Of a stretch of 64,000 nt of DNA, positions 62,268 through 62,392 are shown in pieces. Every line of letters starts with the position of its first letter. The stretch's first letter is position 1. The position numbers and the translations under genes are program-made. The stretch comes from an uncultured Bacteroides sp. (GTDB taxonomy: Bacteria; Bacteroidota; Bacteroidia; Chitinophagales; Chitinophagaceae): NCBI GenBank assembly GCA_902168085.1, contig CABHOP010000078.1, forward strand, positions 33-64,032. Direction: 5' to 3'. The notes under the pieces were generated by a model. That model had not been told where the DNA came from. It did not search any database and saw nothing but the letters and a program-made list of their open reading frames with translations.

Positions 62268-62286
62268 TGTGCCCGCGATAGGAATT
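62268..62286 (-). repeat. Displaced tRNA 3'-end fragment (att junction)
   Basis: Reverse complement AATTCCTATCGCGGGCACA = T-loop end + T-stem strand CCTAT + acceptor strand CGCGGGC + discriminator A, followed by a terminator. No rest of the tRNA upstream. Confidence 0.65.
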
Positions 62287-62366
62287 CGTTTGAACACCTT
62301 AAAGAATTATTTGAACTGATTAGCACGATCAGGGCGGCGTAAATTGTTTGACAGTGGTTCATATGC

Positions 62367-62392
62367 GGGCTGGTATCTACCGGCCCTTTTTT
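62367..62392 (+). terminator. Terminator after the orphan C-terminal tail
   Basis: GGGCTGGTA-TC-TACCGGCCC-TTTTTT, 25 bp after TAA 62340-62342. Confidence 0.72.

What the first reader, a model, noticed from the sequence alone, without database searches (positions are those of the whole stretch)
62268..62392. Orphan C-terminal tail ending in -RAA across the att site: possible integration-controlled degron switch
Seen: reading the plus strand through the att core gives CARDRNSFEHLKELFELISTIRAA-stop (62268-62342), an amphipathic helix with no start codon, followed by its own terminator. Inference: in the excised circle this is the end of a gene (integrase or repressor) entering from the element's other end. 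If the host T-loop is TTCAATT, the integrated copy reads TGT GCC CGC GAT AGG AAT TGA and stops 18 residues early, losing the tail. Established: C-terminal -AA is the ClpXP/ssrA-type degron, and mycobacteriophage BPs uses attP inside its repressor gene to remove such a tag on integration. I know of no Bacteroidota or tRNA-T-loop-supplied-stop example, but cannot search.
Basis: inference. Interest (0 to 1): 0.75.

Follow-up and report, generated by a model that had tools for sequence, protein, structure and literature searches.

The report
Integrase gene split by prophage integration
The orphan 24-codon reading frame is most likely the cut-off end of a phage's own serine-integrase gene, left behind at the left prophage border when the phage inserted into the tip of a tRNA-Leu gene, so the integrase changes its tail each time the phage enters or leaves the chromosome.

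Summary
Window 62268-62342 reads CARDRNSFEHLKELFELISTIRAA-stop with no start codon, and a terminator follows at 62367-62392.

It sits on a real insertion border. Contigs of the same Flavipsychrobacter species without the insert match the window up to 62274, then continue into tRNA-Leu(TAA). Only TGTGCCC is tRNA-derived.

The insert's right end could not be recovered, because the source contig stops 1.9 kb inside the insert. Relatives fill the gap:
- Bacteroidota phage contigs carry large serine integrases whose C-termini match this tail when aligned from the stop codon (shuffle p about 0.0002-0.001).
- One 78%-identical pair appears to show both states: an intact gene, and a copy that reads antisense into what looks like a tRNA 3' end, judged from 16 nt at the end of the held sequence.
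- The phage and host half-sites share TYGAAC offset by 5 bp, as known for serine-integrase attP and attB.

The degron idea is untested. The terminal -AA is not conserved (AA, AA, IA, IA, VA).

Verdict: a new variant of a known kind (Mx8, SSV, BPs).

The parts
61314..62165 (+). Host gene: a 283-aa secreted protein with a Por_Secre_tail (T9SS) domain. It is the last host gene before the junction.
   Evidence: The same protein lies next to tRNA-Leu in the empty-site contig L012.
62185..62259 (.). Host terminators: a + strand hairpin at 62185-62210 and a 14-bp-stem bidirectional hairpin at 62230-62259. In the empty site the second one lies just 3' of tRNA-Leu.
62268..62274 (-). TGTGCCC, the last bases shared with the empty site. 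It is the complement of tRNA-Leu(TAA) positions 69-73 plus 2 trailer nt. It contains the crossover, inferred to be the CC dinucleotide at 62273-62274.
   Evidence: The dinucleotide is placed by analogy with the LI integrase numbering.
62275..62298 (+). Phage-side half-site (P') of the attachment site. GGA at 62281-62283 is in the same register as in the tRNA half-site. TTGAAC at 62290-62295 lies 5 bp further out than TTGAAC in the tRNA T-arm.
   Evidence: p about 0.002 for that shift; MAFFT opens a 5-nt gap in attB; the rule for serine integrases.
62268..62342 (+). Displaced 3' end of the integrase gene: 24 codons (CARDRNSFEHLKELFELISTIRAA) plus TAA. It cannot be translated in the lysogen, because there is an upstream TAA and no start codon.
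   Evidence: Homology to the C-termini of large serine integrases in L036, L038, L042 and L044.
62367..62392 (+). Intrinsic terminator 24 nt after the tail's stop codon. In the excised circle it would end the integrase transcript.
62600..62830 (.). Array of TTGTTACA repeats. There are at least 7 direct copies, several spaced 10 nt apart, and 2-3 inverted copies. It lies between the terminator and the first phage gene. It may be a regulatory or origin region, and it is too far from the core to be part of a serine-type att site.
   Evidence: A variant array occurs in run X6.
63061..64000 (+). First phage genes: a 198-aa protein (63061-63657) and the start of a 106-aa protein (63724 onward). Both are syntenic with genes that follow Rep and SSB in phage-like contigs L013, L034 and L035.

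Best explanation
The window's last 1.7 kb is the left end of a prophage inserted at the 3' tip of a tRNA-Leu(TAA) gene of a Flavipsychrobacter species. The phage most likely integrates with a large serine integrase, and its attP lies inside the last ~25 codons of that integrase's own gene.

Recombination at a short core (the CC at tRNA positions 70/69 is the inferred crossover) therefore splits the gene:
- The body of the gene stays at the far (right) end of the prophage, reading outward.
- There it picks up four host-coded residues, ...CA-PGGT, and a TGA from the complement of the T-loop.
- The last 22 codons, the natural stop and the terminator are stranded at the left border. That stranded piece is the orphan tail.
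- Excision restores the full gene.

Shown:
- the junction and its polymorphism between genomes
- the tail's similarity to integrase C-termini
- what look like the intact and the integrated states in a related phage pair
- the 5-bp offset of the shared TYGAAC motif between the phage and host half-sites

Inferred:
- that this element's right end carries the integrase body
- the exact crossover dinucleotide
- any consequence for the protein. The prophage form loses a conserved amphipathic C-terminal helix. That could change its activity, its stability or its expression.
For: 1. Real, polymorphic insertion border.
- Empty-site contigs from the same metagenome and from other genomes and runs share the window's left flank as far as their own tRNA trailers allow, X4 exactly up to 62274, and then continue into tRNA-Leu.
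- An independent contig, L011, has the occupied junction.

2. The insert is phage-like.
- The 198-aa and 106-aa genes are syntenic with contigs that carry Rep_1, SSB, a virion structural protein and an endolysin.

3. Relatives place a large serine integrase downstream of Rep (seen in L036 and L037).
- L036 and L037 carry one downstream of Rep in the same orientation. L034 carries another.

4. The tail matches the C-termini of these integrases.
- Aligned from the stop codon without gaps, it scores 37 against the L036 and L038 C-termini.
- That is higher than about 6,000 other stop-preceding segments.
- Composition-preserving shuffles give p = 0.0002-0.001, and register 0 is the best register.
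- L042 and L044 share ...(I/F)EHL... with the tail.

5. Both states appear to be visible in a related pair.
- L042 has an intact 526-aa integrase.
- L043's integrase is 78% identical over residues 3-509. It then diverges into TGGAGCTGGCGGGATT, whose reverse complement AATCCCGCCAGCTCCA is a tRNA 3' end.

6. The half-sites follow the serine-integrase rule.
- TYGAAC lies 5 bp further from the core in P' than in B', both in the window/host pair and in the L042/L043 pair.
- MAFFT opens a 5-nt gap in attB on its own.
- This is the attP/attB rule described for serine integrases (PMC3783163).

7. A short common core is typical of serine integrases (PMC8092301).

8. In frame, the attR reading is CAPGGT followed by TGA.
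Against: - The element's right end and its integrase body were never seen. The source contig is 64,159 nt long and stops inside the insert.
- The tail homology rests on 16-24 residues. An ordinary tblastn does not pick it out.
- The tail's codon usage is uninformative, with a likelihood ratio of 1.15.
- L043's tRNA identity rests on 16 nt at the end of the held sequence.
- Dyad symmetry of attB and of L036's candidate attP is weak, 8-9 of 20-24 positions.
- Serine integrases usually target protein-coding genes, not tRNA genes.
- Part of the shared motif (TYGAAC, GTGCCC) may be conserved because it codes for protein.
Confidence: 0.8

Rival explanations
1. One reading: the tail is a ClpXP/ssrA-type degron. 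The free-phage protein would be unstable and the prophage-encoded, truncated protein stable, giving a BPs-style integration-controlled stability switch.
For: - The tail ends in -AA, as does L036's.
- All five tails end in Ala after a small or hydrophobic residue.
- In mycobacteriophages with attP inside the repressor gene, both repressor and integrase often carry ssrA-like -AA tags.
Against: - The -AA is not conserved: AA, AA, IA, IA, VA.
- The residue at -3 is R or E, not L.
- The protein is an integrase, not a repressor.
- There are no stability data.
- The conserved feature is a whole amphipathic helix, which points to a structural or interaction role.
Confidence: 0.15
2. An Mx8-like activity switch. 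Losing the C-terminal helix would change what the integrase can do, for example by lowering further integration or changing its dependence on a directionality factor. Losing the terminator and colliding with tRNA transcription would lower its expression in the lysogen.
For: - The helix is conserved across integrases that are only 30-38% identical, and it extends beyond the half-site DNA.
- In Mx8, integration gives int a new 3' end and alters the enzyme's specificity (PMC6070905).
- The terminator is stranded at attL.
- The truncated gene would face the tRNA genes head-on.
Against: No functional data of any kind. The role of residues after the zinc-ribbon domain in serine integrases is unknown to me. 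The split could be neutral.
Confidence: 0.3
3. A chance open frame in the non-coding arm of an ordinary tyrosine-integrase element that crosses over in a 7-bp overlap at the tRNA tip. The terminator would merely insulate the prophage end.
For: - tRNA 3' ends are classic tyrosine-integrase targets.
- An open frame of this length is common by chance.
- Codon usage and amphipathicity are not significant.
Against: - Stop-anchored similarity to four serine-integrase C-termini.
- The 5-bp motif offset is seen twice.
- Relatives carry serine integrases, and no tyrosine integrase was seen.
Confidence: 0.07
4. A scar, not an att site. A deletion or decay event fused the tRNA tip to the remnant of an integrase gene in a defective prophage.
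For: The right end is unseen. The contig breaks 1.9 kb into the insert.
Against: - The empty and occupied forms coexist in one sample at 4.3x and 2.5x coverage.
- The junction falls at a tRNA position equivalent to within 3 nt of the divergence point in the L042/L043 pair, the same crossover position under the inferred model.
- Such a deletion would have had to remove the tRNAs and ccmB.
Confidence: 0.05

Closest known systems
Myxococcus phage Mx8 IntP/IntX (attP inside int)
   Same: attP lies within the integrase coding sequence, so integration gives the prophage copy a new 3' end (PMC6070905). Islander notes that the Mx8 and SSV integrases extend across attP (PMC4383910).
   Different: From memory, Mx8 Int is a tyrosine recombinase and a much longer C-terminal segment is exchanged. 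Here the enzyme is most likely a large serine integrase, and 22 residues (the last 22 codons) are replaced by four.
Integration-dependent immunity of mycobacteriophage BPs and relatives
   Same: attP lies inside an ORF. The prophage product is shorter at its C-terminus (136 to 103 residues). The stranded 3' end sits at the other prophage border. C-terminal ssrA-like tags occur on both repressor and integrase (PMC4557955, PMC8092301).
   Different: In BPs the split gene is the repressor and the integrase is a tyrosine recombinase. Here the split gene is the integrase itself. No repressor link was found, and the -AA is not conserved.
Listeria phage A118 (LI) integrase attP/attB architecture
   Same: The core is short. 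The recombinase-domain motif keeps the same register in both sites. The zinc-ribbon-domain motif sits 5 bp closer to the centre in attB than in attP (PMC3783163). L036's integrase matches the A118 integrase at 23.5% identity.
   Different: A118 integrates into comK and its attP is outside int (both from memory). Here the host half-site motif is the tRNA T-arm (GTTCAA/GTTCGA) and the phage half-site is coding sequence.
Fusellovirus SSV1/SSV2 integrases
   Same: The att site is inside the int gene, which is interrupted on integration into a tRNA gene (PMC5861418).
   Different: These are archaeal tyrosine recombinases. From memory, the gene is cut near its 5' part into two large fragments, rather than losing a short tail.

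Membership tests
Large serine integrase attachment site (attL = B + core + P') | A large serine recombinase (Resolvase + Recombinase + Zn_ribbon_recom) is encoded next to the att site | tested here: inconclusive
   The integrase body of this element was not recovered. No match to one exists in the window. The tail does match the C-termini of such enzymes, and relatives encode them.
Large serine integrase attachment site (attL = B + core + P') | The zinc-ribbon-domain motif is shifted 5 bp toward the centre in attB relative to attP, while the inner motif keeps its register | tested here: met
   TTGAAC lies at +16..21 in P' against +11..16 in B' (p about 0.002 for this shift and 0.035 for any shift). 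TCGAAC lies at +13..18 against +8..13 in L042/L043. GGA is in the same register, and MAFFT opens a 5-nt gap. The rule comes from PMC3783163.
Large serine integrase attachment site (attL = B + core + P') | Short common core with a non-palindromic central dinucleotide | tested here: inconclusive
   Only the right edge of the core is visible, at 62274. L042 and L043 share GTGGAGCTG. The inferred dinucleotides, CC and AG, are non-palindromic. Short cores of 5-8 bp are typical.
Large serine integrase attachment site (attL = B + core + P') | Imperfect dyad symmetry of attB and attP | tested here: inconclusive
   attB gives at best 8 of 20 matches. L036's candidate attP gives 9 of 24, or 12 of 24 with an odd centre.
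tRNA-targeting genomic island (Islander definition) | An intact tRNA gene at one end and a displaced tRNA fragment at the other | tested here: inconclusive
   The displaced fragment is only 5 tRNA nt plus 2 trailer nt, far shorter than the usual 25-76 bp. The end bearing the intact tRNA was not recovered. The empty site with the intact tRNA was seen.
Integration-dependent immunity (BPs type) | attP lies inside the repressor gene | tested here: not met
   The tail aligns with integrase C-termini, not with a repressor. No repressor was identified.
Integration-dependent immunity (BPs type) | An ssrA-like C-terminal tag is removed by integration | tested here: inconclusive
   The -AA is present in the window and L036, but L042 and L044 end -IA and L038 ends -VA. 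Proteolysis cannot be tested with these tools.
Integrase gene extending across attP (Mx8/SSV type) | The integrase ORF continues through the core, so attL carries its 3' end and attR carries a hybrid ORF | tested here: met
   attL carries an integrase-like 3' end. A related provirus appears to show the hybrid ORF running into a tRNA. For this element attR is inferred; in frame it would read CAPGGT followed by TGA.
Integrase gene extending across attP (Mx8/SSV type) | Tyrosine recombinase chemistry | tested here: not met
   The matching integrases are Resolvase/Recombinase/Zn_ribbon proteins.

The most novel reading that the evidence does not exclude
A clade of Bacteroidota phage large serine integrases reads the T-arm of tRNA genes with its zinc-ribbon domain. 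It keeps its attP inside the coding sequence of its own conserved C-terminal helix. Every integration or excision therefore remodels the enzyme, removing or restoring the helix, the terminal A-A/I-A/V-A, the stop codon and the terminator. This would be a built-in switch of integrase stability, activity or directionality.
Probability: 0.3. Interest if true: 0.75.

Novelty: new variant of a known kind. Interest (0 to 1): 0.6.

Why it matters
Genes that span attP and change on integration are known for tyrosine recombinases (Mx8, SSV) and for the BPs repressor. I know of no described large serine integrase that carries attP in its own 3' coding end and borrows a stop codon from a tRNA T-loop, but my literature check was limited.

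If real, it would do three things:
- Add tRNA genes to the targets of serine integrases.
- Give a natural case where one DNA stretch is both a protein helix and that protein's binding site.
- Offer a testable self-regulating integrase, which is relevant because these enzymes are used as genome-engineering tools.

It also shows that prophage borders in Bacteroidota metagenome bins can be mapped by comparing occupied and empty sites.

Tried and rejected
Searches that found nothing useful:
- Exact search for the 18-mer TGTGCCCGCGATAGGAAT in species genomes gave only chance hits in unrelated phyla, none of them tRNAs. This spent the only genome scan, and it showed that the sequence is not a conserved tRNA end.
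- ARAGORN and Rfam found no tRNA or known RNA at 62268.
- Attempts to recover the right end all failed: look-ups of the 198-aa protein, of ccmB and its cluster members, and of Rep homologues; sequencing-run searches and read laying.
- An 84,001-nt contig listed for ccmB (P0126) was never shown.
- The tail peptide was too short for the big protein searches. It had no match in phage genomes, Pfam, IMG/VR (degenerate and exact DNA patterns) or the related loci.

Tests that were uninformative:
- Codon usage and hydrophobic moment.
- The AlphaFold model of the 198-aa protein was poor (pLDDT 53) and its fold matches were meaningless.
- Distant serine recombinases from IMG/VR (L039-L041) and the L034 integrase have unrelated C-termini.

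Ideas rejected:
- The minus-strand ORF at 62258-62362 is not a gene, because it overlaps the terminator.
- The junction is not a misassembly. It appears in two assemblies, and only 7 nt are shared with the alternative path.

Full report
**1. The observation**

Window 62262-62342 (+) reads NLCARDRNSFEHLKELFELISTIRAA followed by TAA. An in-frame TAA lies at 62259-62261, and there is no ATG, GTG or TTG before the stop. A + strand hairpin at 62367-62386 followed by T6 lies 24 nt after the stop. It folds at -18.9 kcal/mol, z = -2.05.

Taken alone the frame is unremarkable:
- The other two frames stop at 62279 and 62317.
- Codon usage gives a coding to non-coding likelihood ratio of 1.15.
- The hydrophobic moment is reached by 9% of shuffles.

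**2. The att site is real, but the tRNA was misread**

ARAGORN and Rfam find no tRNA here.

The neighbouring host gene (283 aa, Por_Secre_tail) led to contig L012 from metagenome ERZ1029167. There the same gene and the same two terminators are followed by aaaacctcTGTGCCC-CGGGCGGGACTTGAACCCGC. This is tRNA-Leu(TAA) on the minus strand. tRNA-Gly(GCC), ccmB and an inverted second copy of both tRNAs follow.

- The window is identical to L012 up to 62274 and then diverges.
- The same empty site is seen in two other Flavipsychrobacter assemblies, L014 and L030.
- It is also seen in Logan contigs of two further metagenomes. The X4 contig matches to 62274 and then reads CGGGCGGGACTTGAACCCGCACACGCATTG.
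- A second contig of ERZ1029167, L011 at 2.5x coverage, carries the occupied junction. The empty form there has 4.3x coverage.

So this is a polymorphic insertion at the tRNA's 3' tip. Only TGTGCCC (tRNA positions 69-73 plus two trailer bases) is host-derived. GCGATAGGAATTCG is insert DNA.

The host was identified as Flavipsychrobacter from the name of the ccmB cluster.

**3. The insert is phage-like, and its right end is out of reach**

The source contig is 64,159 nt long, so it ends about 1.9 kb into the insert.

The 198-aa protein has one homologue found in the 5.8-billion-protein search, at 45% identity, on the 86-kb contig L013. It and the next gene (106 aa) are syntenic with L013, and the 198-aa gene also has a 38%-identical counterpart after SSB in L034/L035. 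L013 carries Rep_1 (faint match), SSB, a virion structural protein and an endolysin; L034/L035 carry Rep_1, SSB and Glucosaminidase-domain proteins. IMG/VR and JGI metagenomes hold no relative of it.

Look-ups through ccmB and read laying did not yield attR.

**4. The lead from relatives**

Homologues of the L013 Rep protein led to two short contigs:
- L036 has the order Rep, small ORFs, a 526-aa large serine recombinase, then DUF3127.
- L037 has the same order, with an integrase 62% identical to L036's over its first 274 residues.

L034 carries a different large serine recombinase. Pfam confirms Resolvase + Recombinase + Zn_ribbon_recom in these proteins. L036's enzyme matches phage integrases, including that of Listeria phage A118.

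The C-termini compare as follows:

| Source | C-terminus |
|---|---|
| Window tail | CARDRNSFEHLKELFELISTIRAA* |
| L036 | ...SAPHTPPLEPLLKLLQWLQATEAA* |
| L038 (a JGI relative) | ...THTQLFDFLEFIESLHVA* |

Aligned from the stop codon without gaps, the tail scores 37 (BLOSUM62, last 16 residues, summed over both sequences).
- This is more than any of about 6,000 stop-preceding segments in six frames of the window and seven loci.
- It is reached by 0.02-0.1% of composition-preserving shuffles.
- The stop-anchored register is the best one.
- The tail is as similar to each integrase as the two are to each other.

**5. Both states in a related pair**

A degenerate DNA pattern for a conserved integrase motif found two IMG/VR contigs.
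- L042 has an intact 526-aa integrase ending ...PSGGAAGTVIEHLTHFLGIIRQIA*.
- L044 is a second intact form, ending ...TVIEHLTSFLQIIRKIA*. Note the EHL shared with the window's SFEHL.
- L043's integrase is 78% identical to L042's over residues 3-509. It then diverges: ...TCA AGT GGA GCT GGC GGG ATT, where the held sequence ends.

The reverse complement of that end, AATCCCGCCAGCTCCA, is the 3' end of a tRNA: T-loop ...AAT, T-stem CCCGC, acceptor CAGCTCC, discriminator A.

I read L043 as the integrated form, with the integrase ORF running antisense into a tRNA gene. This is the mirror image of what the window shows at its left border.

**6. Architecture of the site**

Counting from the point where the sequences diverge:

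| Pair | Motif | Phage half-site (P') | tRNA half-site (B') |
|---|---|---|---|
| Window and its host | TTGAAC | +16..21 (62290-62295) | +11..16 |
| L042 and L043 | TCGAAC | +13..18 | +8..13 |

- For the window pair, the chance of a run of 6 or more at exactly that shift is about 0.002, and 0.035 at any shift within 8 bp either way.
- The L042/L043 pair shows the same +5 offset again.
- GGA sits in the same register in all four half-sites, and MAFFT opens a 5-nt gap in attB by itself.

This is the rule described for the A118 (LI) integrase. There the zinc-ribbon-domain motif lies at positions 16-24 in attP and 11-19 in attB, while the recombinase domain binds in the same place in both (PMC3783163).

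Putting the crossover at tRNA positions 70/69 makes both systems fit that numbering. It gives non-palindromic dinucleotides: CC at window 62273-62274 and AG in L042. This placement is inference.

The short visible core agrees with serine integrases (5-8 bp), against 25-76 bp for tyrosine integrases at tRNA genes (PMC8092301).

**7. Consequence for the gene**

Recombination keeps register. The integrase at the prophage's right end would therefore read ...TGT GCC CCG GGC GGG ACT TGA, that is ...CAPGGT-stop, with the TGA from the complement of the T-loop TTCAAGT.
- The prophage form is 18 residues shorter than the phage form and lacks the conserved amphipathic helix.
- The tRNA would keep its acceptor stem if attP carries GTGCCC, as L036 does. 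This is inferred.
- The natural stop and terminator are stranded at attL, and the truncated gene faces the tRNA genes.

**8. What the split does is open**

The helix is conserved among integrases that are only 30-38% identical, and it extends beyond the half-site. A protein-level role is therefore likely.

The degron reading is possible. All five tails end in Ala after A, I or V, and ssrA-like tags on integrases are known in mycobacteriophages. However, -AA is not conserved and the -3 residue is R or E.

An Mx8-like change of activity or a drop in expression is at least as likely. None of these can be tested here.

**9. Comparison and verdict**

Integrase genes that cross attP are known for Mx8 and SSV. 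Integration-dependent C-terminal truncation is known for the BPs repressor. This case works like those.

It fails two of their defining features:
- The enzyme is not a tyrosine recombinase.
- The split gene is not a repressor.

It meets the tested features of a serine-integrase att site. I found no description of a serine integrase with attP in its own 3' end or with a tRNA target, in a limited literature check.

I rate it a new variant of a known kind. My confidence in the structural reading is 0.8. The functional reading is unresolved.

Noticed in passing
window 62600-62830: Dense array of TTGTTACA repeats: at least 7 direct copies, several spaced 10 nt apart, plus inverted copies at 62667, 62803 and 62812. 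It lies in the 790-nt non-coding stretch before the first phage gene. A variant array (ATTGTTACACATTGTTACAAT) occurs in groundwater run X6. It may be an operator or origin region. It is absent from relatives L013 and L034.
   Followed up: partly
L012 4536-4755 and 5672-5893 (empty site, same species): The tRNA-Leu(TAA) and tRNA-Gly(GCC) pair is duplicated as an inverted repeat flanking ccmB. The two tRNA-Leu copies differ at 2 positions, and both keep TTGAAC. The host therefore has two candidate attB sites and a spare tRNA-Leu. Many assemblies break at this repeat, giving ccmB contigs of about 933-973 nt.
   Followed up: partly
window 62204-62239: Perfect 36-nt palindrome (GCGGCTTTTTTTGTGTAT/ATACACAAAAAAAGCCGC) linking the two host terminators after the Por_Secre_tail gene. 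It also produced weak Rfam sRNA-like hits (BTnc231, 28 bits against a gathering score of 80).
   Followed up: no
L013, L031-L037 (relatives): A family of Bacteroidota phage-like contigs (about 40-107 kb) encodes a ~520-aa Rep_1 (PF01446) protein, a rolling-circle initiator family (my reading of the Pfam family, from memory). It sits in the early operon, often next to SSB or DUF3127 and sometimes next to a large serine integrase. 116 homologues were found, almost all unnamed.
   Followed up: partly
window 63061-63657: The 198-aa protein has no Pfam or PHROG match. The 5.8-billion-protein search found only one homologue (45% identity); local comparison found a further, 38%-identical one in L034/L035. 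The AlphaFold model was low-confidence (pLDDT 53, mostly beta) and gave no meaningful fold match.
   Followed up: yes
L011 and L012 (ERZ1029167): The occupied junction (2.5x) and the empty junction (4.3x) coexist in one soil or wastewater-type metagenome. The lysogen and non-lysogen populations are mixed, or the prophage excises.
   Followed up: no
L038 870-905: The tail-coding region of the L038 integrase contains an inverted repeat, TCGAACA-N10-TGTTCGA. Its relation to that phage's attP is unknown.
   Followed up: no
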